Part shown: positions 1 through 54,193 of the stretch, piece after piece | Numbering within the stretch: position 1 is the stretch's first letter | How the letters are laid out: every line of letters begins with the position of its first letter | Source: a virus | Lineage: Duplodnaviria > Heunggongvirae > Uroviricota > Caudoviricetes | Virus record (IMG/VR): IMGVR_UViG_3300035520_000484 | Span: 98,993 to 162,992 of that record | Strand: one strand, 5' to 3' | Length of the DNA: 64,000 nucleotides | Program-made: the position numbers and the translations under genes | The notes under the pieces: model-generated | The model's database searches: none | What the model saw: only the letters and a program-made list of their open reading frames with translations | Told to the model about the DNA's origin: nothing

Positions 1-411
1 TAGTTAATATCATATTCTTTCATTGGTTTTTCTACATATTTATTAAATAAAGTTGCAGCATATCCAATGTTAACTCCAGAAATTCTATTCTCTCCAAAAT
101 CTTTAGAAAGACTTCCTCCTGTGTTAGATATATAATATCTTGTAGTTCTAGGAAGCGAAATTTCTTTAATTTCACCATTTTCAATATACTTAAATTTTGC
201 TTCTGATTTAGAATTAGTCTTTAATCGTAAACAAAAATCAAATATATCTTTATGATTAAGTATAGTATTTTTTATAGGTATATTATTAACGAAATACTCT
301 TTTAATGCAATTGGAACAATTCTCATTGAAGGATCCTTATGATATTCTTTATCAATTTCAAAACATCCTTTCAATTTAGTATTTCCGTCTTCATAAACAG
401 CAATATAATTA
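1..411 (-). CDS. Family B DNA polymerase, putative 3' exon / C-terminal part. Open frame with no start codon; runs past the window start.
   Basis: Minus-strand frame open from about 411 to 1 (...NNYIAVYEDGNTKLKGCFEIDKEYHKDPSMRIVPIALKEYF...ATLFNKYVEKPMKEYDIN...). It lies directly after the intervening GIY-YIG element that follows the polymerase ORF at 1359-2831. Confidence 0.4.
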
Positions 412-1358
412 TTTCAATTTGTCCAATTATTTCTAATTGGATTGGACTATATCTTTAATAGTCTTTCTAATAATTCTGTATTCTTTACAAAAAACATCAT
501 CAGATTTTTTTCTTGAAAATGAACTTAATACACTTGTTAGATTTAGTTCTTTTAACATAGTATAATCTCCATTTTCAGTAATTAAATTTCCATTAGGATC
601 ATAAATAATATATGAATATTTAGTTTTATTTTTTGACATAATTTTGCTTTGTTGCTTTTTTCTTTCATTATTATTTTTCCAATATTCTTTTAATTTATCA
701 GAATGGGTATCTCTTATACCTTCTTCCCATTCTTTTTTAAGTCTATTAGAAATTTTAATAGAAGTTTCTTTAGAACAAAAACATTTTCCCTGTGAATCAT
801 ATCTTAAATTATAACCTTTTTTTCGATCTAGAGAATTTAATTCAATCATCCAATATAGTTCTCTATCATATAAAAGTTTTTCTAAGATTTTAGGATCTTT
901 TTCGTCAAATTTTTCAACAATGTAATATTCAAAGTTATCTTCTCCGTATTTTTTGAAAGCATTTAATAAATGAACATTTTCATTATATTGTCTACTTTCA
1001 ATTCTAATATCTGTTAAATGTTGATGTAATCGTTTATAACAATTTTTTGATTTACCAACATAGATCTTTCCGTTTATAGAATTTTTAATTACATAAATTC
1101 CAGGAAAATTGCAATTTGATTTTTCGATTTTCATATTCAATATCTTTTTTACAAAGATATTAATTCTGAAATTCAAAACCAAATAATTGTTATATAATTA
1201 TTAGTAATAACTATTACCCTCCGTTTCCATCATAATTACATGATGTACTCTACTCAGTTCATACAAAAGTATGCTTTTCGATAGTCTCTGAACCTTCAAA
1301 ATCTATTACATAATAGATTAAGCTTGGCTGCTGATTGTCATACACTTAGTTTCTCAAC
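412..1358 (-). other. Putative group I intron interrupting the DNA polymerase gene. Contains a GIY-YIG homing endonuclease ORF.
   Basis: 176-nt non-coding stretch (1183-1358) plus the endonuclease ORF lie between the polymerase exon 1 stop and an ORF continuation that has no ATG. Two verified RNR introns in the same genome show the same architecture. Confidence 0.35.
433..1182 (-). CDS. GIY-YIG homing endonuclease. Terminates at TAG, then one codon, then TAA.
   Basis: N-terminal motif GIYVIKNSINGKIYVGKSKNCYKRLHQH is a canonical GIY-YIG module. About 249 aa, the typical endonuclease size. Confidence 0.8.
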   Translation of the reverse strand: MVLNFRINIFVKKILNMKIEKSNCNFPGIYVIKNSINGKIYVGKSKNCYKRLHQHLTDIRIESRQYNENVHLLNAFKKYGEDNFEYYIVEKFDEKDPKILEKLLYDRELYWMIELNSLDRKKGYNLRYDSQGKCFCSKETSIKISNRLKKEWEEGIRDTHSDKLKEYWKNNNERKKQQSKIMSKNKTKYSYIIYDPNGNLITENGDYTMLKELNLTSVLSSFSRKKSDDVFCKEYRIIRKTIKDIVQSN

Positions 1359-2831
1359 TTATGCTACAGATTTCCAGCAGTTAAAAGGGTTACGACGCAA
1401 ATAATTTACGTCTCTCAATATAAATTTTGAATATACATTATCTTCAATGTATAGACCTGTAAGTTCAGTCATTTCTTTACCTACTTGTTTAGCCTTATCA
1501 AAATCTTTACGTGGAAGTAAATAAGTAATACCATCTGTGTTATGCTGAATAAATTTAATTTCTGGAATAGCTTTTACTAACTTTTCAGTCCATAATGATA
1601 AAAACATTTGTCCAGATATCGTAGTTTTCATAGTATACAAAGGATCATAGAGAACGGAAGATTCTTCACCGGACTTACCATAGATCCCATTGGCAGCCAA
1701 CTTGAAACCTTCCATAATAACCATATCACGTTCTTTTTTAGGCTTCTTTTTCTCTGCTAATCGTACTGATACAATATCCTTATTATAAATTTCAAGAAAT
1801 GTTTTACCTAAATGTTCAGGATAAATACCTAATTGAATAGCTATACTAGGGTAGAGTGATCCGATGTCTTCGTCTAGTATAGTCCAATAATTATCAGCTT
1901 GATAAATACCTGGTTCAGCAGAACTATGTAGTCCTCCTGTCCCATAATCCATTTTTATTCCATGAAATATAACAGACTCTTCAAAAGATCCTTTAATACT
2001 TTTTATTTTAGTATTAATGAATTTATTTTTAATGTTATTAAATTCTTCTGTTTCAAAATTAGCCCATTTTGGAATACAATCAGCAAGGTTAATAACATCT
2101 CTGTAAGTTCCACCTCTAGCTTTTAATTGTCCAGGATAAGTATTAGTTTTTTCACAATACAAAGAAATAATTAATTGCTCTCCAATTTTAACATCAGGCC
2201 AATTTAAACATGGAATGTGGAATTTATGTTGAAGCTTTTGACGTAGATCTATTTTATTTTTACCTTTATAAACAGGATCATCAGTTTTGCCAAGAGCAAC
2301 TAATAAAAATTTATATGTAGAGAAGACGTCATTCTTGTTATATGCAAGCACTAATTCTTCATCTCCTTGCTTACACCAAGTTGTATGATGAATAGGCATT
2401 TCTTCTACGTTAGGAAGTCTCATTGCTATTTCTAGATCTTTTAATGAACAGGTTCTAGCTTTATTATTATAATGAAATATCCTATATAAATCAATTTGTT
2501 GTATATATTTATTTTTATCAGCAATTACACTAAATTCTTGATTTATAATTTCCTGAGATTTATTATATAAGCATATAGCAACTTCTTGTCCCGATTTATT
2601 TTTATACTTATCATAATGATTTAATATATGATGCTCTAATGGGTAGTCATAGCTCTCATCGTTAAACCCTACTTGAATAATTTTATCTCTAGTAAGATGT
2701 TTATAGAGAGAGTCTAATTCATTACGCCAATTACATATTACAAATTGATAATATTTATTTTCCTTTGGGCAATATCCTGTATATGTAAATAAATTCCTTA
2801 AACATTCTAAATCATATACTTCTAGAATCAT
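1359..2831 (-). CDS. Family B DNA polymerase (exonuclease plus polymerase core); exon 1 if the gene is intron-split.
   Basis: Exo I YDLE, Exo II GFNDESYDYP and Exo III YNKNDVFSTYKF are present. Pol motif A DEDIGSLYPSIAI matches the DxxSLYPS consensus. Motif B KLAANGIYGKSG matches KxxxNSxYG. Motif C reads HNTDGI. Confidence 0.8.
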   Translation of the reverse strand: MILEVYDLECLRNLFTYTGYCPKENKYYQFVICNWRNELDSLYKHLTRDKIIQVGFNDESYDYPLEHHILNHYDKYKNKSGQEVAICLYNKSQEIINQEFSVIADKNKYIQQIDLYRIFHYNNKARTCSLKDLEIAMRLPNVEEMPIHHTTWCKQGDEELVLAYNKNDVFSTYKFLLVALGKTDDPVYKGKNKIDLRQKLQHKFHIPCLNWPDVKIGEQLIISLYCEKTNTYPGQLKARGGTYRDVINLADCIPKWANFETEEFNNIKNKFINTKIKSIKGSFEESVIFHGIKMDYGTGGLHSSAEPGIYQADNYWTILDEDIGSLYPSIAIQLGIYPEHLGKTFLEIYNKDIVSVRLAEKKKPKKERDMVIMEGFKLAANGIYGKSGEESSVLYDPLYTMKTTISGQMFLSLWTEKLVKAIPEIKFIQHNTDGITYLLPRKDFDKAKQVGKEMTELTGLYIEDNVYSKFILRDVNYLRRNPFNCWKSVA

Positions 2832-2836
2832 ATTTA

Positions 2837-3691
2837 TTATAATAACTCTCTTAATTCGTCACCGTATTTAGATTTAATTTTAGCAAGTGCCTCACATTCT
2901 ATTTGTCTAGCTCGCTCATATCCTATTCCAAAACGACTTGCAATTTCTTTAAATTGCATAGAAACCATTCCTATACCAAAAGTCATTCTTAATATGTCTC
3001 GTTCTCTATCAGGTAAACTATCAATCATTATTTCTATTTCTTTAGAAACACTTGATTGAATAACATTTAAATCAGAGTTTTCAGCATTTTCATTAGGTAT
3101 AACATCAAGTAATGTTCCTGCTTCTTCATCTTTAAAAGGAGTATCAAATGAGACAGAGCGACTACCAGAAGATAATGTGGCACTAATTTTACTATTAGGT
3201 AAATCACTTAATTCTTCTATTTCTTCAACAGAAGGATTTCGTAATTCCTGTTGTTCAAACTTCTCAGAAACCTTATTAATCTTATTATATAATGAAATAT
3301 AATTCATTGGCAATCTAACAGTTCTACATTCTGAAGAAATAGATTGCATAATTGCTTGTCTAATCCACCAAACAGCATAAGATATAAATTTAAATCCCCT
3401 AGTTTCATCCCATAGATAAGCAGCTTTCATAGCTCCTTCAACGCCACTTTGAATTAAATCAACTAAAGGAATACCTTTATTCTGATATTGTTTAGCAACA
3501 GAAATTATAAATCGGAGATTCCCTTCTACTAACTTCTTAGCAGCAGAGGAATCTCCGTCTTTTATTTTATGAGACAATTCTATTTCTTCATTAATATCAA
3601 TCATTGGAATCTTAGATACTTCTCTAAACAAAGAAGCTAGAGAAGCATCTTGACGATCCGTTATAGATTGAGATATTTTTAAAGGTCTCAT
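2837..3691 (-). CDS. Sigma-70 family RNA polymerase sigma factor (phage-encoded).
   Basis: Region 2: NLRFIISVAKQY...LVDLIQSGVEGAMKAAYLWD...FKFISYAVWWIRQAIMQSI. Region 4 helix-turn-helix: LPDRERDILRMTFGI...KEIASRFGIGYERARQIECEALAKIK. Confidence 0.8.
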   Translation of the reverse strand: MRPLKISQSITDRQDASLASLFREVSKIPMIDINEEIELSHKIKDGDSSAAKKLVEGNLRFIISVAKQYQNKGIPLVDLIQSGVEGAMKAAYLWDETRGFKFISYAVWWIRQAIMQSISSECRTVRLPMNYISLYNKINKVSEKFEQQELRNPSVEEIEELSDLPNSKISATLSSGSRSVSFDTPFKDEEAGTLLDVIPNENAENSDLNVIQSSVSKEIEIMIDSLPDRERDILRMTFGIGMVSMQFKEIASRFGIGYERARQIECEALAKIKSKYGDELRELL

Positions 3692-4867: not shown

Positions 4868-6070
4868 TTATTCTAAATCAAAGCGAAAAACTCTTAATTT
4901 TGGTTGGGTAGGTACTCCATCATCTGATAAGTTAAAGTAAGTACATTCTGCTTTATGTCCTTTGTATTTAGTCTCAAAGTTTTGAACATATTCTTCCTTA
5001 GTTTCTCTATCACCAACAGGCATAGCTTTAAAAGTACGTCCATCTTCTAATTCACATACAAAAGTCATATCCTCTGAACCACGTAAACCTAATTCATAAC
5101 CAATTACCATAAATTCAGAATCCTTATACTTCTTAATTTTAATCATATCATTGGTTCTACCATTAGGCTTATAAGGTTTATTAGGATTACGAATTACAAC
5201 TCCTTCAAATCCTTCTGATACATATTTATCATGTAATGCTTCAATATTTTTCCAACCAGATACTTCTACTTGTTTTAGTAGATAAATAGGATTGATGTGC
5301 ATTTCATCCGGTTCTGTTTCAACTACAAAGAAAGGAAAGTTTTCAGTTAAGAAATCTTGTCGTTCTTTAGCTGTCATTTCTGGATGTGCAGAATCATACA
5401 TATCATATACCCAATATTCTAGCCATTCAGTATCAGAATCCTTTTCCATTCTAGCAGCACCACTAATCTTTTGTAGACTAGTAAATCGTTTAAATAATTC
5501 ACCATCCAAAATTATAGTAGGATTGTTAGTTAGAAATTCTATTAAATACTCATTAGTACGAATATGTTCTGTAGAATAATCAAAATGCTCACCACCTCTG
5601 CTTGCTGTATGTACTTGTTTACCATCAAAATATATTAGACACCTTACACCATCTAATTTTCTTGAAGCTAGCCATACATTATCAAAGATTTTCTGATTGG
5701 TAACTTTTTCAAATTGTTTAGCAAGCATAGGTTTAATAACTCCTTGAGTATTAGTAACAGTATCACCAAAGAGCTGTTTTAATTCAGATTCTGAGTAATC
5801 ATTAGGATGTTGAGGAACTTCAATATATCCTTTATCTTTAAACTTTTTTACTTCCGAATAAAATTGAAGTTTATATTGTTCTTGCCAGGTTCTTTTTTGC
5901 TTAGTTCTATCTACTACAATAGCAGGAGATAAAGTAGTTTTACCATAGACTTGACCATAGCTACGTTGAATAACGTAGCCATGTCTTTCTTCATCCCATT
6001 CTTCAGTACATTCTACTACAGCAAATCTGAATTTACCTGTAGATGCTCGACTTAATAGATATACCCTCAT
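4868..6070 (-). CDS. ATP-dependent DNA (or RNA) ligase, nucleotidyltransferase superfamily.
   Basis: Motif I KLDGVRC (KxDG). Motif III ILDGELF. Motif IV EGVVIRN. Motif V IKIKK. Confidence 0.65.
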   Translation of the reverse strand: MRVYLLSRASTGKFRFAVVECTEEWDEERHGYVIQRSYGQVYGKTTLSPAIVVDRTKQKRTWQEQYKLQFYSEVKKFKDKGYIEVPQHPNDYSESELKQLFGDTVTNTQGVIKPMLAKQFEKVTNQKIFDNVWLASRKLDGVRCLIYFDGKQVHTASRGGEHFDYSTEHIRTNEYLIEFLTNNPTIILDGELFKRFTSLQKISGAARMEKDSDTEWLEYWVYDMYDSAHPEMTAKERQDFLTENFPFFVVETEPDEMHINPIYLLKQVEVSGWKNIEALHDKYVSEGFEGVVIRNPNKPYKPNGRTNDMIKIKKYKDSEFMVIGYELGLRGSEDMTFVCELEDGRTFKAMPVGDRETKEEYVQNFETKYKGHKAECTYFNLSDDGVPTQPKLRVFRFDLE

Positions 6071-10446: not shown

Positions 10447-12024
10447 TTATTCACAACGAGTATATGAACAATTAGTACATGAAACACATCCTCCTTGATG
10501 AATTAACGTTGGTTCATGACAATTCGGGCATTCCACTGCTGTAGTAAACTGAACATTACGTTTTTCTTTAGATTCATCATATGAGAGAGCTTTCTTTGGA
10601 AGTATTTCAGGACTTTGATTTAAACTTGAAGTTTCTTCTTCGTGATTACATTTACATACAATATCCTGCATTTCAGCAGCCATACTCTTTAACGCTTCTC
10701 CTACTGCTACAGGACAACAAGATCCTTTTGAAGTATCTTTTTTAGTAGCACTACGAACAGCATATGAAGGACATACACCACAAGATTTAAGCTGATCAAG
10801 AATATTTTCAATTTTAATACCACCTCTTGCAGCAAGACTAATCATACGAGAAAGAGAAATCATAAAGTTATTACATCCTCCTGTACTACCTTTAGAAAGA
10901 TAACATTCTCGTAATTCACCATTAGAAGGATCAAAGTAGGCTGTACAATGTAAACTGCCGCAACCAGTAATCAAGGTTCGCTTAAGACCTATACATTCAT
11001 TACCAGCTTTGATAATTTCTCCTCTTTTTAGTTCATGAGGATTATCTAACTGTAATTTAGCATTATCAGTATTAAGACTAACTTCTTGAGATATTTCTAC
11101 TTCTGGTTTTTCTTTAGATTCTTTCTTAGAATCTGTAGTAAGAATACCTTGTCGTTGACAATTATCTCTCCAAATAGTAACACCCTTTAATCCCTGCTTC
11201 CAAGCTTCTACATAAATATCAAATACTTCTTGTATAGTAGTAGATTCTGGAAGATTAATAGTAGAACTAATTGATGCATCAATATACTTTTGTAAAGCTG
11301 CTTGTACTGCAATTCTCTCAAATGGATTAATATCTTGAGAAGCAACAAAATACTCTGGAAGTTCAGTATTGCCAGTAATTTTTTTGTACTGTTTAACAAT
11401 CTCTGTATCAACCTTATATACAGTTTCTTCTTGATTCAAAGATACTGTACGGCGATTAAATGAGAAGGCAAAGTTAGGTTCTACTCCCGTACTAGCTCCA
11501 ACCATTGTTGCAATAGATCCTGTAGGTGCACAAGTTAGAAGCTGAGAGTTAAATAAACCATACTTTTTAATCTTTTCAAGAAGAGTTTCATCTTTTACAA
11601 TATTTTTAATAAAGCTAGAATTAACTAGTGCTTTATTATTACACATCGGATAACTTCCATGTTCTTTAGCAAGCTTTAATGATTGTTCAATAGCTGCATA
11701 TGCGATAATGCTAAAAACGTCTTTAATTACAGATAGACTTCTTGATGTTCCATAGGTTATTCCCATTTTAATCAACATATCTCCGAGACCAAATGTTCCT
11801 AATCCAATCTGTCGCCATAGGCGTACAGAGTCTCGTTGTATTTGTAATGGATGTAAAGGTAATCCTTCTGTCAAAACTTTATTGAGAGCTTTTACAGCAG
11901 TATAAGTAGCTTCTGTAAGCTCCATTAAATCTATATAAGATTTATCGGAGAATGGATACTTAACAAATTCTGAGAGATTAAGACTGCCCAATAGGCAGGA
12001 ACCTCCTGCTGGGAGCGGCTCTTC
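10447..12024 (-). CDS. Ribonucleotide reductase, exon 3 (C-terminal part). NrdJ-like with a C-terminal CxxC...CxxC zinc ribbon. The ORF track starts at a TTG; the true exon begins at 12024.
   Basis: Exon starts EEPLPAGGSCLLGSLNLSEF, matching the RNR consensus ...(G)E.PL....CNLGSINL.. Later motif TCAPTGSIA matches APTGS. C-terminus CPNCHEPTLIHQGGCVSCTNC. Confidence 0.8.
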   Translation of the reverse strand, partial: EEPLPAGGSCLLGSLNLSEFVKYPFSDKSYIDLMELTEATYTAVKALNKVLTEGLPLHPLQIQRDSVRLWRQIGLGTFGLGDMLIKMGITYGTSRSLSVIKDVFSIIAYAAIEQSLKLAKEHGSYPMCNNKALVNSSFIKNIVKDETLLEKIKKYGLFNSQLLTCAPTGSIATMVGASTGVEPNFAFSFNRRTVSLNQEETVYKVDTEIVKQYKKITGNTELPEYFVASQDINPFERIAVQAALQKYIDASISSTINLPESTTIQEVFDIYVEAWKQGLKGVTIWRDNCQRQGILTTDSKKESKEKPEVEISQEVSLNTDNAKLQLDNPHELKRGEIIKAGNECIGLKRTLITGCGSLHCTAYFDPSNGELRECYLSKGSTGGCNNFMISLSRMISLAARGGIKIENILDQLKSCGVCPSYAVRSATKKDTSKGSCCPVAVGEALKSMAAEMQDIVCKCNHEEETSSLNQSPEILPKKALSYDESKEKRNVQFTTAVECPNCHEPTLIHQGGCVSCTNCSYTRCE

Positions 12025-13162
12025 CTAAAATGTTATCATAAGAGCTTTTTATCTCTTATTTCCGGGAATTTCTTCCATTATACAGATTTATTCATCTGCC
12101 GGATCGGCATATATTTTTATTAATTCTTTTAATTTTATAATTATATCTCTTTTTCCAGATACTCCTAAAACTTTTCCTACAGTCCTAGTATCTTTTACAC
12201 CAATAAATTCTGCTAGATCGTTTAAAAAATTAAGTCTATTCATTTTACAATTTAATACAAGTTCTTTATTATCATGTAACCATTTAAGAATAAGATTATA
12301 TCTCTCATCTTTAAGTTTTGCATAATTTTCCATGTTTACTTGTGTTGCTAACTTAGCTTTTTCAATTACTTCTTCATGTCTAGCTTTTTGAGAACATTCT
12401 TGAGAACAGTAAGTACGATGTTTTGCTTCACAAGGTTTAAGTTTAATAACCTTATGACATACAGGACATTCGAAATCAACAAAATTTTCTAAAGCACGTT
12501 GTTTTATAGTTTCTGTACCTTTTCGGAGACCTTCTCTCATTTTGGCAGCACATTCTTCATTTTGCCATTTTAATTTAGTAGTTTCTCCAATTTTTGCTTT
12601 AGTTTCATCAGTACATTTTCCTCCATTATTTCCACCTGCTTTTAAATTATATCCTTTTTCCTTGTTTTGAGAATCGTATTCTTTAATATACTTAATCTCT
12701 AATTCGTTAAGTATGTTTAAATCATCACATTCTTCTAATATTTCCCAAGTAAAAGAATCAAATCCATATTTTTTTAAAGCATTATGAAAATAATTATCAT
12801 AATATTTAGTCCTGTTACAATCTCTCTGATGTTGACTTTTTCTATGTTCTAAAGAATTAATAGTCTATCCAATATAGACTTTCCCATTGATTTTGTTGGT
12901 TACTTTGTAAATTAACATAATTATAAAAATTTTTAAATTAACATTGGGTACTCGTGGTAACATTATATTTATTCAGTTACTATGCTCTACAGTGATAATT
13001 CGCCTTTTCGTAATCGAATTATTTACCACGGTATTATCAATGCAAATATACATATTCCTTGTAAATTAACAAAATCCACCTACGTTAATTTTTATAAAAT
13101 ATGTATTTTTTGTTTAGACTTCACCGTTTTTACCCAATTTTTAACGTGAGCCGAAGATACCC
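12025..13162 (-). other. Group I-type intron 2 within the RNR gene; carries a GIY-YIG homing endonuclease.
   Basis: Upstream exon ends ...GVNPCA on a U (gct). The intron ends ...ttttag on a G. The downstream exon resumes in frame at EEPLP. The joined protein reproduces the NPC(G/A)E catalytic-loop region. Confidence 0.75.
12088..12918 (-). CDS. GIY-YIG homing endonuclease encoded in RNR intron 2. Has one in-frame TAG codon (plus-strand CTA at 12865-12867) read as Gln.
   Basis: MLIYKVTNKINGKVYIG(TAG)TINSLEHRKSQH...KYGFDSFTWEILEECDD...ELEIKYIKEY...GYNLKAGG is a full GIY-YIG module. The TAG sits at the usual Q/S position after YIG. C-terminal Zn finger CPVCHK...C..EC. Confidence 0.7.
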
Positions 13163-13498
13163 AGCACACGGATTGACTCCTGCATAGCTAAAGTTAGAAT
13201 CCTTGTCTAGCATGTTATAGTTAGTTATATTATCCCAATATAACACTCCAGGTTCAGCCATTTCCCAATTTCGTTTAGCCAGTAACATGAAAATATCGCG
13301 AGCATTAACAGTTTTCTTAATACATTCATGTTCTGTATTAAACGTAAGATCCCAAGGACGGTTATTAATCACTGCATCCATAAAGTTATTACTTACTCGA
13401 ACTGAGATATTAGCCTTAGTACAGATATTTAGGTCAGATTTAAGATTAATAAATTCCTCTAAATCAGGATGAGTACAATCAATAGAAAGCATTGTTGC
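13163..13498 (-). CDS. Ribonucleotide reductase, exon 2 (catalytic-cysteine region).
   Basis: ATMLSIDCTHPDLEEFINLK...NISVRVSNNFMDAV...MAEPGVLYWDNIT...GVNPCA matches the RNR consensus A.M..L...HPDI..FI..K / N.SV.V.D.FM.AV / ..PG..F.D..N / NPC. Confidence 0.8.
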
Positions 13499-14354
13499 CC
13501 TACTTATTAAATATATAAGTAGCAGACTATCTCTTCATAAGGAACTGTGCTTCCTTATGCCATGCGCTTCCACTATAAGAGTTTCACTTATAGTGTACCC
13601 TACTCGGTTATTCACTAATAGCTGTATCAGTTATCCTTTCGGTAGTCGTTACACTTTCATTTGTAAATTCAAAAATATATCCTTTTAATTTTCCCTTAGT
13701 AGGAGTATAAGGACTAGATTTTGCAAGCCAATGTTGTAAGGTAGTAGAATTCTTATATCCATAATATCTAGAGGCATCACTCATATTTGGAAATATGATA
13801 ATATTTCCATTTAATTCAGTGACTTTTACTCTTTTAATATTAGAATATGCACAATTATCAAATCCATGTTGAGTATTATAACTTATACTACACCACTCTA
13901 GATTTTCGACATTATTATTCTTTTTGTCTAAATCTTTATGATTAACTACATTACAACCTTCGATTTCAGGAAGATATTTTAAAGCAACTAATCTATGAAC
14001 TCTAAATGGTTGTCTATTACCATTTGAATCATAAACTAGTGATACATCGTAATATCCGTCTTTATCTTCTCTAAATTTTAAATATCGGCTTGTGTATGGG
14101 CTATATACTTTCCCATCTTTTGAAATTTCATAATGTTCTAAGACATATTTTTCTTTTTCTGTCATAATTTGTAATTTTTATTTTAAAGTTTTTAATTTTT
14201 CGACATTACAAATTTAAACATTATGATTTGAATTTTCAAATGCTTAGCACGGTATTTTATAAAAATTTATTTATAATTCACCGTTAGCAACTTTATGTTA
14301 AAGTTACACCCTATATTTATAGGTTCACATGGTTACGAGGCACATTTTTGGCTT
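13499..14354 (-). other. Group I-type intron 1 within the RNR gene; carries an HNH homing endonuclease.
   Basis: Exon 1 ends ...EGRRG on a U (ggt). The intron ends on a G (agg). Exon 2 resumes ATMLSID. Joining the two reconstructs the conserved GRRGA.M..L...HPD block. Confidence 0.75.
13608..14165 (-). CDS. HNH homing endonuclease encoded in RNR intron 1.
   Basis: HRLVALKYLPEIEGCNVVNHKDLDKKNNNVENLEWCSISYNTQH is an HNH motif with surrounding phage endonuclease features. Confidence 0.7.
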   Translation of the reverse strand: MTEKEKYVLEHYEISKDGKVYSPYTSRYLKFREDKDGYYDVSLVYDSNGNRQPFRVHRLVALKYLPEIEGCNVVNHKDLDKKNNNVENLEWCSISYNTQHGFDNCAYSNIKRVKVTELNGNIIIFPNMSDASRYYGYKNSTTLQHWLAKSSPYTPTKGKLKGYIFEFTNESVTTTERITDTAISE

Positions 14355-14804
14355 ACCTCGACGACCTTCTTGTCCAATTAACCCAGTTACATAACTAAAT
14401 AAGTCCATAAAACTGGTAACACCAGAAGTAGTCTTAGCTGCATTATTAACTTTAGATCCTTTTGGACGTAATTTACTTACATCAACCCCACAGCCTCCAC
14501 CATAACTAAAAGTACGAGCTAATTGAGAGGCACAATTAAAAATAGATTCAAGATTATCATCTGGACTAGGAAGTACATAACAATTTGAGTAAGTTACTCT
14601 TTTACCGTATTTCTCTAATCCTCTATTAGCTAGAATACGACCTCCAAATAAGAACTTCTTATCTATAATTAACTGTCTAACTTTTTTATCACCTCCACTA
14701 ACTCTATCTAACCATTGTTCAAATGATTCATTTTGGTATCTATATTTATTATTCCAAATATCTAATGAAAGTTGATTATCACCAAGCCAGTCTTTTTCGG
14801 TCAT
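14355..14804 (-). CDS. Ribonucleotide reductase, exon 1 (N-terminal part).
   Basis: KYGKRVTYSNCYV...TFSYGGGCGVDVSKLRPKGSKV..TSGVTSFMDLFS...QEGRRG matches the RNR GGG.G...S.LRP.GS and ..G.RRG blocks. The downstream KPKMCLVTM-stop belongs to the intron. Confidence 0.8.
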
Positions 14805-45416: not shown

Positions 45417-45652
45417 ATTATTTAATTAAATATTAATTTAATACTTATTTAGAGTTTGAATTACTACCAGCTTTTTACGTAAGTTTCTAATGACATTCCC
45501 AATCTTTTAAAGCTTGTTTATTCATATATTTAATAAGAAGATTTTTAATCTCCTTATTTTGCTCTTTAATATTATCTAATTTTAATAATATATAAGCAAG
45601 TATTAATCCTAATAATATTCCAATTATTATCATTGTTATTTATTTTAATTAG

Positions 45653-45729
45653 CCTCGGATGATGGATTCGAACCACCGACCTCTAGTATCAAATCTAATA
45701 CTAGCGAGCTGACCTCTCTCCTATCCGAA
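45653..45729 (-). tRNA. Aberrant tRNA or tRNA-like gene (77 nt): good acceptor, D-arm and T-arm, but a 7-bp anticodon stem with an 8-nt loop TAGATTTG. Anticodon undetermined.
   Basis: Acceptor TTCGGAT / ATCCGAG (U1.G72). T-arm GGTGG-TTCGAAT-CCATC. Anticodon stem CTAGTAT / ATACTAG. Variable loop AGGTC. Discriminator G. Confidence 0.4.
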
Positions 45730-45990
45730 TTTAAGATTATCTCTCTTTTTCTGACTTTGATACACTTAAAAGCCCATCATTATAGAGAAATTCAGAATTT
45801 TAATCCAAACCAACAGTGTTTTTTCTAATTATAATAATTAGCGAAAGGACAAACCATTTGAGTGTTTCACTGTAGATAATCACCAATATTAACCCTTAAA
45901 AACTAGAACTCCTCGCCGGAGTTAAACCGGCACCACCTAAGGAGGTCCCAAATCGCTTGAGGAGTTAATTTTATAACCAACAAAAAACAG

Positions 45991-46063
45991 TGTTCTAGCT
46001 AGGGCTTGAACCTAGAACCTCCTGTGTATAAGACAGCTGCGCTAACCATTGCGCCACTAGAAC
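45991..46063 (-). tRNA. tRNA-Ile (anticodon UAU).
   Basis: Acceptor GTTCTAG / CTAGAAC. D-arm GCGC-AATGGTTA-GCGC. Anticodon stem GCTGT / ACAGG with loop CTTATAC. T-arm CTAGG-TTCAAGC-CCTAG. Confidence 0.75.
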
Positions 46064-46114
46064 AAATTTAGCTTTGTTTTAAAGTAGTAAAGCTATAAAA
46101 CTACTATCTTTAGA

Positions 46115-46282
46115 TTAGTCTAGACAAATTGTGTCAGTGACTACCTCAGTTACCGTATCAGAGGATACTGTATCAACCATTACAGAATCAGTAGTTTCTT
46201 CACTCGTTGCTGTTTCAGAAGGACGACAAGCAACAAAAGCTGTACTAAAGATAAGCGCACAAAACAAAATTAACTTTTTCAT
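46115..46282 (-). CDS. Small secreted or lipoprotein-like peptide (55 aa).
   Basis: MKKLILFCALIFSTAFVACRPSETATSEETTDS... has a signal peptide with lipobox-like AFVAC. Below the ORF-track size cutoff. Confidence 0.3.
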   Translation of the reverse strand: MKKLILFCALIFSTAFVACRPSETATSEETTDSVMVDTVSSDTVTEVVTDTICLD

Positions 46283-46316
46283 ATCCATTTAAATTTAAGT
46301 TAAACAATAAAGTTAG

Positions 46317-46388
46317 TTGTCTCATCAGGATTTGAACCTGAAATAGCAGAACCAAAATCTGCTGTGTTGCCGATTACACCATGAGACA
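46317..46388 (-). tRNA. tRNA-Gln (anticodon UUG).
   Basis: Acceptor TGTCTCA / TGAGACA. D-arm GTGT-AATCGGCA-ACAC. Anticodon stem GCAGA / TCTGC with loop TTTTGGT. T-arm TCAGG-TTCAAAT-CCTGA. Confidence 0.75.
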
Positions 46389-49300: not shown

Positions 49301-50812
49301 AGGGTTTTATAATGCTAAAATTGCAACAAATGCAAATGCTATGTATAAAGCAAAGCATATCTTAGCAGATTTAACTTTCAGTTCTTGATTATCACCTACT
49401 AAATCTTCGATGATAGAATCAATGACGGAATGTATTGTACTTACTATTAAACCAAGAAATAGTAAGACAATACACACCTTCATTATATAGAATATTACCA
49501 CAGCCATAATAATGTGAAGAACATCACTCCTGCCAATATAGCAGGAGCAATGTAATATACATTACGAGATTTCCAATGTTTCATTTCAGTTGAGAATTTA
49601 CATAATCTGCATACGCTTTAAGAAATTCATCAATTCCTAGATAATATGCAACACCATACTTCTTAGCACGTTGTACAAAACATTTCCATGTTAAGTACTC
49701 GCCGATAATCGCTTCCTTGTTTTCAGGACAAGCGAAGTAACGGGAAAAGTTACAGTGCAACTGATCCCAGAGAGATGAGTGAATACCAAAGGCTTCACAT
49801 AAACCTTCATATTCTCTATGTAGTATTTCTTTATTCATAATTAATTTGGGTTTGTGTTTTACACCTAAAACTCTCATGCACATCGGCAAAGTTAGTAATA
49901 TCATGAATACTTTATCACTAACATGAGAGAAACTGGTGCCCTCAACATCTTGGGAAGTTATTGAGTTTTTTAATTTGCTCGTCTTTCCGAGCTGCTAACT
50001 ATCACATTGTATCATTAATACAGGAAAACCTATTCACATACGGTTTATTACTAAGGAATGTGGTACCCCAACCTGTTTTAAACACTAATGACCCCAATAC
50101 GCAGAAATAGTATAGCCAGTTCTTACTACTGCGAGAGTGGTATTGAGACCTTAGATTGATTTAACTTGGATTTCAAAAATATACCAATCATCTCCACCTT
50201 TATGAAAAGCTATATGTTCTTTAGCTTCTTCAAGAGTATTGTAAATACGAACGAGGTTGTCATTGTGGCATACCATATATCCAGATTTGAGTTCTGATGT
50301 TTTCATTGTTTTGTTGTTTTTTGGGTTATACTTCTGTTTCGTCGCAATTTTCAGCGACTCATCAGGTGTCTAATGACACGACAGAACTTAACTACTTTCA
50401 CAAGCAATTAAGTGTATAATTATTCCAAATCATGACCTCCTTAATAAAGGAGGTTTCGTCCTAGTCTCATCAGATGATATTTTAAGGTCTCCTAGGCTGA
50501 CCATAGAAATTTTCTATAATAAGAAAATTTTTAACTTATACGAATAAGTGAATAAATGTGCATACCTATATAGTCCTCGAATGACTGAGGAATTTTATAG
50601 AATGTACATTTGGGAATTAAAGGTGGGTGGTGGGTATAGACCCCCTTAATCGAAGATCCAGCCTATCACCAACCACCTTTTACCAACAATACGAAGCAAC
50701 CAATACCCAACTTTGCCTAACCAGCTATCAGGCAATACTTGAGTATGGTAAAGATTCCCATCATCATCACGAAGAAGGGAATCTTTAATCATAGTTGCTC
50801 TACAACACCGCA

Positions 50813-54117: not shown

Positions 54118-54191
54118 TGCCCAATAGTATAAAGGTTTAATTACGACGCACTCTAAATGCGAAAATAACAGTTCGAGTCTGTTTTGGGCGA
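54118..54191 (+). tRNA. Amber suppressor tRNA (anticodon CUA), reading UAG.
   Basis: Acceptor TGCCCAA / TTGGGCG. D-arm GTA-TAAAGGTTTAAT-TAC. Anticodon stem ACGCA / TGCGA with loop CTCTAAA (C32 U33 C34 U35 A36 A37 A38). T-arm AACAG-TTCGAGT-CTGTT. Discriminator A. Preceded by the hairpin AGTGGGA-atct-TTCCCACT. Confidence 0.8.
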
Positions 54192-54193
54192 CT

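What the first reader, a model, noticed from the sequence alone, without database searches (positions are those of the whole stretch)
1..2831. Family B DNA polymerase appears interrupted by a GIY-YIG endonuclease (probable intron); its C-terminal part lies in a start-codon-less ORF at the window edge.
The polymerase ORF (1359-2831) contains Exo I-III and polymerase motifs A, B and C but ends about 70 residues after motif C. A 176-nt non-coding segment and the GIY-YIG ORF follow. Then a frame with no ATG opens at about 411 and runs past position 1. The verified RNR introns in this genome have the same layout.
Basis: inference. Interest (0 to 1): 0.55.

Follow-up and report, generated by a model that had tools for sequence, protein, structure and literature searches.

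The report
Self-splicing intron inside phage DNA polymerase
The phage's family B DNA polymerase gene is interrupted by a 993-base self-splicing group I intron that carries its own GIY-YIG homing endonuclease gene; this is a well-known kind of selfish element in phage replication genes, here in a new place.

Summary
On the minus strand, polymerase exon 1 runs 2831→1408 and a 993-nt group I intron runs 1407→415. Exon 2 runs 414→1 and continues off the window, with about 26 codons missing.

Joining exon 1 to exon 2 gives ...FILRDV|NNYIAVYEDG.... This matches more than 60 uninterrupted 633-647-aa homologues (60-78% identity) with no gap. One PHROG polymerase profile is covered 56-501 by exon 1 and 501-602 by exon 2.

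The intron has the expected parts:
- P1 with a U·G pair at the 5' splice site
- a 7-bp P10
- P3 to P9, plus P7.1 and P7.2 (subgroup IA)
- a terminal G

Rfam's group I model hits the window's two intron halves (39.9 and 23.9 bits). It also hits an ORF-less copy at the same site in a relative (78.4 bits, E 1.5e-20). Across nine introns at this site, 96.9% of proposed pairs form and 25 of 58 show compensatory changes.

The 233-aa I-TevI-like GIY-YIG gene sits in the P8 loop, and its 3' end overlaps P8', P7' and P9. Relatives carry intron-less, ORF-less and decayed-endonuclease alleles, as the homing cycle predicts.

It is a new member of a known kind. Splicing and cleavage are inferred, not shown.

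The parts
1408..2831 (-). Polymerase exon 1: ATG at 2831 to U1408, residues 1-474 plus the first two bases of the Val475 codon. It holds Exo I-III and polymerase motifs A, B and C.
   Evidence: ORF. PHROG phrog_1252 profile 56-501, E 1e-95. Alignment A1. The junction is set by P1 and by intron-less alleles.
415..1407 (-). Group I intron, 993 nt, subgroup IA type. It has P7.1 and P7.2, has no P2, and ends in the terminal G at 415.
   Evidence: RF00028 split hits 1391->1216 (39.9 bits, E 1.7e-8) and 503->423 (23.9 bits, E 1.1e-3). Orthologous ORF-less intron in L003 at 78.4 bits. Covariation. Helix coordinates.
1394..1412 (-). P1 hairpin with the internal guide sequence. Exon GACGU (1412-1408) pairs with GCGUC (1398-1394), with U1408·G1398 at the 5' splice site. 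AUUAUUU (1405-1399) is the P10 strand.
   Evidence: Read from the sequence. Folds on its own (z -3.2). Pair 4 covaries G-C to A-U with the exon in 4 of 9 introns.
408..414 (-). First 7 nt of exon 2 (AAAUAAU), which pair with the guide sequence 1405-1399 to form P10.
   Evidence: The first pair covaries U-A to G-C in the distant polymerase clade.
1217..1389 (-). Upstream half of the catalytic core:
- P3 1389-1383 with 1223-1217
- P4 1379-1374 with 1334-1329
- P5 1370-1369 with 1339-1338
- P6 1328-1326 with 1294-1292
- P7 5' strand 1286-1282
- P7.1 1273-1270 with 1263-1260
- P7.2 1245-1240 with 1233-1228
433..1134 (-). GIY-YIG homing endonuclease gene, 233 aa, I-TevI-like, in the loop of P8. The stop TAG (435-433) lies inside P9.
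   Evidence: Pfam PF01541 4.4e-10. TIGR01453 65.8 bits against cutoff 56.05. I-TevI catalytic domain 1MK0/1LN0 at E 3e-9, aligned across the GIY...YVG, KR and GYN positions, plus RE in wild-type 1LN0. Homologous ORFs sit at the same place in L035, L040, L005, L021 and L022.
423..460 (-). Downstream half of the core, overlapping the 3' end of the endonuclease ORF: P8 3' strand 460-456 (partner 1216-1212), J8/7 plus P7 3' strand (GAUAUAGUCC 453-444, P7' 449-445), and P9 hairpin 440-434 with 429-423 closed by a GAAA loop.
1135..1211 (-). 5' part of the P8 loop upstream of the endonuclease ATG. It contains an 11-nt copy of the start of exon 2 (AAUAAUUAUAU) and an 11-bp hairpin that ends just before the AUG.
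   Evidence: longest-match test, 18 of 2000 shuffles as good. (fold, z -3.6). Function is inferred only.
1..414 (-). Polymerase exon 2, from the third base of the Val475 codon onwards, 137 residues in the window. It runs off the window edge, and about 26 residues plus the stop codon are missing.
   Evidence: PHROG phrog_1252 profile 501-602 and phrog_18505 140-238. Alignment A1 shows homologues continuing ..YNFYIAEAxKIxNAVxDGQLxLF.

Best explanation
The essential family B DNA polymerase gene of this roughly 160-kb phage is interrupted by a mobile group I intron of subgroup IA. The insertion lies inside the Val475 codon of the conserved RDV|NNY segment, which in the model of a close homologue is the turn of a beta-hairpin just after motif C.

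**Splicing (inferred).** The gene is transcribed as one pre-mRNA. The intron RNA folds into the P3-P9 core and pairs its guide sequence with the end of exon 1 (P1, with a U·G pair at the cut site). A free guanosine attacks after U1408. The start of exon 2 then pairs with the same guide sequence (P10), and the exon 1 3'-OH attacks after the terminal G415. This ligates ...AGAGACGU|AAAUAAUUAU... and restores an open reading frame of about 638 codons.

**Mobility (inferred).** The P8 loop carries a 233-aa I-TevI-like GIY-YIG endonuclease gene. By analogy with I-TevI, the enzyme cuts intron-less polymerase alleles of co-infecting relatives near the insertion site. Repair using the intron-bearing copy then spreads the intron (homing).

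**Shown here:** exon continuity, intron structure with covariation, the endonuclease family, and presence/absence polymorphism among relatives.

**Not shown here:** splicing activity, endonuclease activity and its target.
For: **Exon continuity**
- PHROG polymerase profile positions 56-501 (exon 1) and 501-602 (exon 2) abut exactly.
- The spliced protein aligns without a gap to more than 60 uninterrupted homologues at 60-78% identity. D474 and V475 are invariant and N476, N477 and Y478 nearly so.
- More than 400 phage polymerases give single-piece tblastn alignments.
- Intron-less alleles read AGAGATGTAAATAACTAT (L200) and AGGGATGTAAATAATTAT (L199), against AGAGACGT|AAATAATTAT in the window.

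**Intron identity**
- RF00028 hits both halves in the window, the ORF-less orthologue in L003 at 78.4 bits, E 1.5e-20, over the full model, and relatives that share the core.

**Structure across nine same-site introns**
- 96.9% of cells pair, against 30-46% when the partners are slid.
- 25 of 58 pairs show compensatory changes, and 0 of 500 shuffles reach this.
- P1 and P10 change together with the exon sequence in the distant clade.
- All same-site introns examined (12 loci) end in G, and their 5' exons end in U opposite a G.

**Endonuclease**
- Searches place it in the I-TevI-like GIY-YIG family.
- Homologous ORFs occupy the same loop in five other lineages.

**Homing-cycle polymorphism**
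- Intron-less alleles are the majority of homologues.
- L002 and L003 carry ORF-less introns of 301 and 274 nt.
- L035 has a truncated 191-aa endonuclease ORF.

**Polymerase family**
- The model of homologue P0001 (pLDDT 89.7) matches only family B polymerases in the PDB, at E about 1e-13.
Against: - There is no experimental evidence of splicing or of endonuclease activity.
- Rfam finds nothing with its default filters, either over the whole window or over 1-3000. The hits appear only when short stretches are searched, each window half is below the 50-bit gathering score on its own, and the weaker hit's printed alignment forces unrelated ORF sequence onto the model's 5' end.
- The intron has no P2, and one P3 pair in the window copy is a U-C mismatch.
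- The nine compared introns represent only about six or seven independent lineages.
- The end of exon 2 lies outside the window, and the source contig could not be retrieved. Completeness of the gene is therefore inferred from homologues.
Confidence: 0.93

Rival explanations
1. The polymerase is a genuinely split gene. A free-standing homing endonuclease gene has cut it in two, and the two halves are translated separately and assemble into an active enzyme, as I recall for gene 43 of some T4-related phages.
For: Exon 1 has its own in-frame stop 15 codons past the junction. The endonuclease ORF lies between the two halves. An internal ATG (..SMRIVP..) exists in the downstream frame.
Against: - The interval is a full group I ribozyme with P1 and P10 tailored to the two exon ends, and with covariation.
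- ORF-less 274-301-nt versions of the same element interrupt the gene at the same base in relatives. A free-standing endonuclease cannot explain that.
- Exon 2 has no start codon for its first 30 codons, which are conserved polymerase sequence.
Confidence: 0.03
2. The intron is real but no longer splices, so the polymerase gene here is a pseudogene, or the contig comes from a defective genome.
For: The window copy has a U-C mismatch at the inner end of P3 and lacks P2. No expression data exist.
Against: - All catalytic polymerase residues are intact, and both exons are under clear conservation.
- All core helices, the U·G pair and the terminal G are intact.
- The endonuclease ORF is also intact.
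- From general knowledge, phage genomes rarely keep a dead copy of their only replicative polymerase. I did not check the window for a second polymerase gene.
Confidence: 0.03
3. The insertion is an intein or another protein-level element, or it is an assembly chimera.
For: From recall, polymerase genes are frequent intein hosts.
Against: - The insert is not in frame with the exons. There are stops at 1361-1359 and 416-414.
- There is no Hint domain.
- The same architecture recurs in independent samples and collections.
Confidence: 0.005

Closest known systems
Phage T4 td intron with I-TevI (subgroup IA2 group I intron carrying a GIY-YIG homing endonuclease)
   Same: - A self-splicing group I intron with extra helices P7.1 and P7.2.
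- It sits in a nucleotide or DNA metabolism gene of a large lytic phage.
- The endonuclease catalytic domain aligns to I-TevI at E 3e-9 across the GIY...YVG, Arg, Glu and Asn positions.
- The ORF is looped out of a peripheral helix.
- There is a hairpin next to the endonuclease start codon. From recall, I-TevI translation is controlled in a similar way.
   Different: - The host gene is a family B polymerase, not thymidylate synthase.
- The ORF is in the P8 loop, not P6a (from recall), and overlaps P8', J8/7, P7' and P9.
- There is no P2.
- The C-terminal 120 residues have no detectable match to the I-TevI DNA-binding modules.
Group I introns in phage DNA polymerase genes: Bacillus phage SPO1/SP82 (I-HmuI/II), T7-like phages, cyanophage Pf-WMP3 (I-PfoP3I; PMC3428280), Bastillevirinae (PMC11878797), Staphylococcus phages K and Twort
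   Same: - A group I intron with a homing endonuclease interrupts a conserved catalytic region of the phage's replicative polymerase.
- The ORF is in a peripheral loop. From recall, it is the P8 loop in SPO1.
- The element is patchily distributed among relatives.
   Different: - Most of those host genes are, to my recollection, family A polymerases, and most of their endonucleases are HNH nickases.
- Here the polymerase is a divergent family B enzyme and the endonuclease is GIY-YIG.
- Two full-text searches turned up no description of this intron site, but they were not exhaustive.
Rfam RF00028 Intron_gpI
   Same: The ORF-less orthologue matches the whole model at 78.4 bits. The window's own halves match model positions 48-158 and the 3' end.
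   Different: The 750-nt P8 insertion and the AT-rich composition (28% G+C; the L003 hit carries a 23.9-bit bias term) make the standard Rfam pipeline miss it entirely.

Membership tests
Group I intron (RF00028) | Conserved core: P4-P6 and P3-P7-P8-P9 helices with the P, Q, R and S sequence elements | tested here: met
   RF00028 hits in the window (39.9 and 23.9 bits) and in the ORF-less orthologue (78.4 bits, full model). The Q, R and S elements were located in the window, and the helices were mapped to coordinates.
Group I intron (RF00028) | P1 formed by the 5' exon end and an internal guide sequence, with a U·G pair at the 5' splice site | tested here: met
   GACGU pairs with GCGUC, with U1408·G1398. 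This holds in 9 of 9 introns, and pair 4 covaries G-C to A-U with the exon.
Group I intron (RF00028) | Terminal guanosine at the 3' splice site, and P10 pairing of the 3' exon with the guide sequence | tested here: met
   G415. All 12 same-site introns end in G. P10 is 6-7 bp, and its first pair covaries U-A to G-C.
Group I intron (RF00028) | Helices supported by compensatory base changes | tested here: met
   96.9% of cells pair against 30-46% when slid. 25 of 58 pairs have changes on both sides, and 0 of 500 shuffles are as high. P4 and P7 are invariant, so they are uninformative.
Group I intron (RF00028) | Excision restores the reading frame of a conserved host gene | tested here: met
   Gap-free alignment across the junction, abutting PHROG profile coordinates and intron-less alleles.
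Group I intron (RF00028) | Guanosine-dependent self-splicing | not testable with these tools
   Needs in vitro transcription and splicing, or RT-PCR.
Subgroup IA group I introns | Extra helices P7.1 and P7.2 between P7 and P3' | tested here: met
   P7.1 is 1273-1270 with 1263-1260 (3 of 4 pairs compensatory). P7.2 is 1245-1240 with 1233-1228 (5 of 6 compensatory). I did not try to assign IA1, IA2 or IA3. P2 is absent.
GIY-YIG homing endonucleases (I-TevI-like) | N-terminal GIY-YIG catalytic domain with the conserved Tyr, Arg, Glu and Asn residues | tested here: met
   PF01541 4.4e-10. TIGR01453 65.8 bits against cutoff 56.05. 1MK0/1LN0 at E 3e-9 with GIY, YVG, KR, RE and GYN aligned.
GIY-YIG homing endonucleases (I-TevI-like) | C-terminal sequence-tolerant DNA-binding domain joined by a linker | tested here: inconclusive
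   Residues about 115-233 are present and conserved among the intron ORFs. They match no Pfam DNA-binding module and no solved structure.
GIY-YIG homing endonucleases (I-TevI-like) | Cleaves the intron-less allele and promotes homing | not testable with these tools
   Support is indirect only: intron-less, ORF-less and decayed-ORF alleles coexist among relatives.
Family B DNA polymerase | Exo I-III and polymerase motifs A (DxxSLYPS), B (KxxxNxxYG) and C (xTDx) | tested here: met
   Read from the sequence. The motif residues are invariant, or nearly so, in A1 and A3.
Family B DNA polymerase | Family B fold | tested here: met
   The AlphaFold model of the 78%-identical uninterrupted homologue P0001 (pLDDT 89.7) has as its top 50 listed Foldseek PDB hits only archaeal family B polymerases and engineered variants, at E 4e-14 to 1e-11 and TM about 0.5.
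Family B DNA polymerase | Match to the curated sequence models (Pfam DNA_pol_B, NCBIfam) | tested here: not met
   No Pfam hit at E<=10 for the spliced protein. The homologue has only a sub-threshold DNA_pol_B_exo2 match (20 bits against 24). There is no NCBIfam hit and no PDB sequence hit. It is a divergent clade, phrog_1252.

The most novel reading that the evidence does not exclude
The P8 loop just upstream of the endonuclease start carries a 9-11-nt copy of the first bases of exon 2, which form the exon-2 side of the presumed homing site. The copy sits at a conserved position and tracks exon differences between lineages: ..TATAT in the window and L005, ..TATTT in L021, ..TAC in L040. It could be an operator through which the endonuclease represses its own expression, as I recall was reported for I-TevI. 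An 11-bp hairpin abutting the start codon would add translational control. If so, homing-site mimicry would be a recurring design feature of GIY-YIG intron endonucleases rather than a T4 peculiarity.
Probability: 0.15. Interest if true: 0.4.

Novelty: new member of a known kind. Interest (0 to 1): 0.27.

Why it matters
**Annotation.** The polymerase of this phage clade is deposited as a 490-aa 'hypothetical protein' (P0002). The correct product is a spliced enzyme of about 638 aa.

**Detection.** Standard Rfam scanning misses the intron completely. ORF-bearing group I introns in AT-rich phage genomes are therefore likely under-counted.

**Biology.** The same codon of a conserved palm hairpin is invaded in at least two divergent polymerase clades, and the guide sequence is re-tuned to each exon. 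All stages of the homing cycle are present among relatives. This is a clean natural dataset for intron and endonuclease turnover, but it changes no concept.

Tried and rejected
- **Rfam with default filters.** Searches over 1-3000, the whole window and whole loci L002/L003 found no group I hit. This was a filter and composition artefact, not absence. Searching short stretches recovered the hits.
- **Source genome.** Megablast of 1-3000 against GenBank phages found nothing, so the genome is not a deposited isolate.
- **Source contig.** I tried to retrieve the JGI contig (162,992 bp) to complete exon 2. Exact-protein look-ups of P0002 and of the endonuclease found nothing. The sigma factor look-up returned only a 2.8-kb contig. 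The metagenome scan for the 17-nt guide sequence did not return the source contig. It gave 46 stretches, of which only 3 (L035, L040, L058) carried the intron's R element; the other 43 appear to be chance matches.
- **Sequence classification of the polymerase.** Pfam, NCBIfam and PDB profile searches all failed. Structure prediction plus Foldseek was needed.
- **Rivals rejected.** I considered and rejected the split-gene, pseudogene, intein and chimera readings (see the rival explanations).
- **Covariance model.** I did not build my own, because Rfam plus the curated alignment settled the question.
Full report
**What is in the sequence.**
All features lie on the minus strand.
- A 490-codon ORF runs 2831->1359.
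- The mechanical ORF list then shows a 249-codon ORF from TTG 1182. Its likely start is ATG 1134, giving 233 aa with stop TAG at 435-433.
- After TGA at 416-414, a frame with no start codon opens at 413 and runs to position 1.

The first ORF carries Exo I-III and polymerase motifs A, B and C. The second is a GIY-YIG protein (Pfam PF01541, 4.4e-10).

Three details need correcting.
- The polymerase ORF ends 56 residues after motif C, not about 70.
- Its last 15 codons are intron read-through.
- The '176-nt non-coding segment' is the ribozyme core, not a spacer.

**Is the downstream frame the rest of the polymerase?**
Yes.
- PHROG family phrog_1252 (DNA polymerase, 663 positions) is matched at positions 56-501 by the first ORF and 501-602 by the startless frame. 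A second family, phrog_18505, is matched at 7-142 and 140-238.
- I joined the two frames at the only point that satisfies group I rules: after U1408 and after G415. The resulting 612-aa protein was searched against the large protein collection.
- The exact 490-aa ORF is on record as a JGI 'hypothetical protein' from a 162,992-bp contig.
- More than 60 relatives at 60-78% identity are uninterrupted proteins of 633-647 aa that cover 100% of the spliced query.
- In the alignment the junction reads FILRDV|NNYIAVYEDG against a consensus FVxRDVNNYLAVYEDG. There is no gap. D474 and V475 are invariant, and N476, N477 and Y478 nearly so.
- tblastn against GenBank phages gives single-piece alignments over residues 5-579 in more than 400 records.
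- At nucleotide level, intron-less alleles read AGAGATGTAAATAACTAT (L200) and AGGGATGTAAATAATTAT (L199). The window reads AGAGACGT|AAATAATTAT.
- Homologues continue about 26 residues beyond the window edge, so the gene is cut by the window and not truncated.

**Is the interval a group I intron?**
By eye, the P, Q, R and S elements are present: aacugcuggaaauc, aaucagcagcc, gguucagagacua and aagauauagucc.

Rfam gave nothing with default filters. This was the main point to resolve, and four results resolved it.
- Two relatives whose polymerase ORF also stops right after RDV (P0084 in L002, P0086 in L003) carry ORF-less versions of the same element at the same base, 301 and 274 nt long.
- When only the L003 element is searched, RF00028 matches its full length at 78.4 bits, E 1.5e-20. 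The helix assignments are the same as mine. The earlier miss was due to filters and AT bias.
- When only window 405-1420 is searched, RF00028 hits 1391->1216 (model 48-158, covering P3 to P3', 39.9 bits, E 1.7e-8) and 503->423 (23.9 bits, E 1.1e-3, where the scoring part is J8/7, P7' and P9). These are the two halves on either side of the ORF.
- Other phage introns that share the core are ordinary RF00028 members at 62-101 bits.

**Structure and covariation.**
Scans for the core and for the guide sequence recovered more introns at this same polymerase site.
- L035 and L040 lie in polymerases of the same clade.
- L005, L008, L013, L029 and L032, and separately L021 and L022, lie in a more distant clade whose exons read ...AGAGACAU|CAAUAAUUAU... 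(RDI|NNY).

I cut out the P8 loop, aligned nine distinct sequences and wrote the structure by hand. The results were as follows.
- 96.9% of the 522 cells form standard pairs, against 30-46% when partners are slid by 1-3 columns.
- 25 of 58 pairs have changes on both sides.
- 0 of 500 shuffles reach the observed pairing, the number of compensatory pairs or the covariation score.
- P3, P5, P6, P7.1, P7.2, P8 and P9 all show compensatory changes. P4 and P7 are invariant.
- The guide sequence follows the exons. P1 is GACGU/GCGUC here and GACAU/GUGUC in the distant clade. The first P10 pair is A-U here and C-G there.
- Every same-site intron examined (12 loci) has U·G at the 5' splice site and ends in G.

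Coding continuity alone leaves a 4-nt ambiguity, because AAAU is repeated at both borders. Only the U1408/G415 choice satisfies both group I rules.

P7.1 and P7.2 place the intron in subgroup IA. There is no P2.

**The endonuclease.**
- The 233-aa ORF occupies intron nt 274-975, in the loop of P8.
- Its last codons (..TIKDIVQSN*) are also P8', J8/7, P7' and the 5' strand of P9. Its stop codon lies in P9.
- It matches TIGR01453 'group I intron endonuclease' above the curated cutoff (65.8 against 56.05 bits).
- It matches the solved I-TevI catalytic domain (1MK0/1LN0, E 3e-9), with the GIY, YVG, Arg, Glu and Asn positions aligned.
- The C-terminal half matches nothing known.
- Homologous ORFs sit in the same loop in L040, L005, L021 and L022. 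In L035 the ORF is cut short (191 aa, with 173 nt left before the splice site). L002 and L003 have none.

Together with the intron-less majority, this is the full invasion, decay and loss cycle expected of a homing element.

**Polymerase family.**
- Sequence libraries do not classify this enzyme.
- An AlphaFold model of the uninterrupted homologue P0001 (42-sequence alignment, pLDDT 89.7) has as its top 50 listed Foldseek hits in the PDB only family B polymerases and engineered variants (9°N, KOD, Pfu, Tgo), at E about 1e-13.
- In the model, RDV|NNY is the turn of the beta-hairpin 462-482. This hairpin follows the motif C hairpin and one helix. The intron therefore sits in a conserved part of the catalytic domain, as homing elements usually do.

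**Mechanism, with status of each step.**
- Shown: exon continuity, ribozyme architecture with covariation, endonuclease family, and allele polymorphism.
- Inferred from established group I and I-TevI biology: guanosine-initiated two-step splicing that yields a polymerase of about 638 aa, and cleavage of intron-less alleles followed by homing during co-infection.

**Rivals.**
- A split gene with a free-standing endonuclease is contradicted by the ribozyme, by the ORF-less introns at the same base, and by the 30 startless conserved codons at the head of exon 2.
- A dead intron or pseudogene is unlikely given intact catalytic residues, helices and ORFs.
- Intein and chimera readings are excluded by the reading frames and by recurrence in independent samples.

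**Novelty.**
Group I introns with homing endonucleases in phage polymerase genes are a textbook kind. Examples are SPO1, T7-like phages, Pf-WMP3, K and Twort, and the Bastillevirinae (papers listed). I found no description of this site or of a family B host gene in two full-text searches, which were not exhaustive. I rate it a new member of a known kind, of modest interest. Its main value is correcting an annotation and showing a blind spot of default Rfam scans.

Noticed in passing
window 10450-14804 (-): The ribonucleotide reductase gene is in three pieces: 14804-14325, 13492-13130 and 12024-10450. The last piece matches Pfam Ribonuc_red_lgC at 2.5e-57 and also TSCPD. The pieces are separated by an HNH-like ORF (14165-13608) and a GIY-YIG-like ORF (12864-12091; phmmer 1.6e-9 to the polymerase-intron endonuclease). 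Their RNA structure was not examined, and the core motifs of the polymerase intron are not found there.
   Followed up: partly
window 50331-50503 (-): Two adjacent hammerhead ribozymes: RAGATH-1 hammerhead (50429-50503, 76.7 bits) and type III hammerhead (50331-50387, 49.8 bits). Both are above their gathering scores.
   Followed up: no
window 54118-54192 (+): A tRNA with anticodon CTA, which reads the TAG stop codon (ARAGORN; Rfam tRNA 52.8 bits). It hints at TAG recoding in part of this phage genome. The endonuclease ORF ends in TAG, and read-through would add only two residues before TAA. A cluster of five more tRNA genes lies at 40404-46388 (-).
   Followed up: no
window 1135-1211 (-), and the same place in L003, L035, L040, L005 and L021: The 5' part of the P8 loop holds a 9-11-nt copy of the first bases of exon 2 (AAUAAUUAUAU in the window, 57 nt before the endonuclease ATG). 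The copy follows exon differences between lineages. In the better cases 18-36 of 2000 mononucleotide shuffles do as well, but it is weaker in L002, L003 and L035 and absent in L022. It may be a homing-site mimic or operator.
   Followed up: partly
window 1125-1180 (-): An 11-bp hairpin (UUAAUAUCUUU/AAAGAUAUUGA) ends 3 nt before the endonuclease start codon, and a flanking outer stem pairs the G of the AUG and the four bases after it. The fold z-score is -3.6 for the 92-nt segment. It may control endonuclease translation.
   Followed up: partly
L199 2171-5518: In a relative (118-kb contig) the RDV|NNY site is uninterrupted, but the polymerase is split at another site near residue 136. The pieces are a 153-aa exon, a 358-aa GIY-YIG/NUMOD endonuclease ORF, and a 505-aa exon. 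Homologues P0064, P0079, P0101 and P0117 start at the same point. This polymerase gene therefore has at least two insertion sites.
   Followed up: partly
L035, intron nt 275-850: The endonuclease ORF in this same-site intron is truncated (191 aa, with 173 nt of non-coding sequence before the 3' splice site). It appears to be a decaying copy.
   Followed up: no
window 2837-3691 (-) and 4868-6070 (-): A sigma-70-like factor with regions 1.2, 2, 3 and 4 sits immediately upstream of the polymerase, and this arrangement is kept in relatives. An ATP-dependent DNA ligase gene lies nearby.
   Followed up: no
L092 9094-9363: In an unrelated 183-kb viral contig, a group I intron of the same core type (101 bits) overlaps a tRNA match. 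It appears to be a phage tRNA gene interrupted by a group I intron.
   Followed up: no
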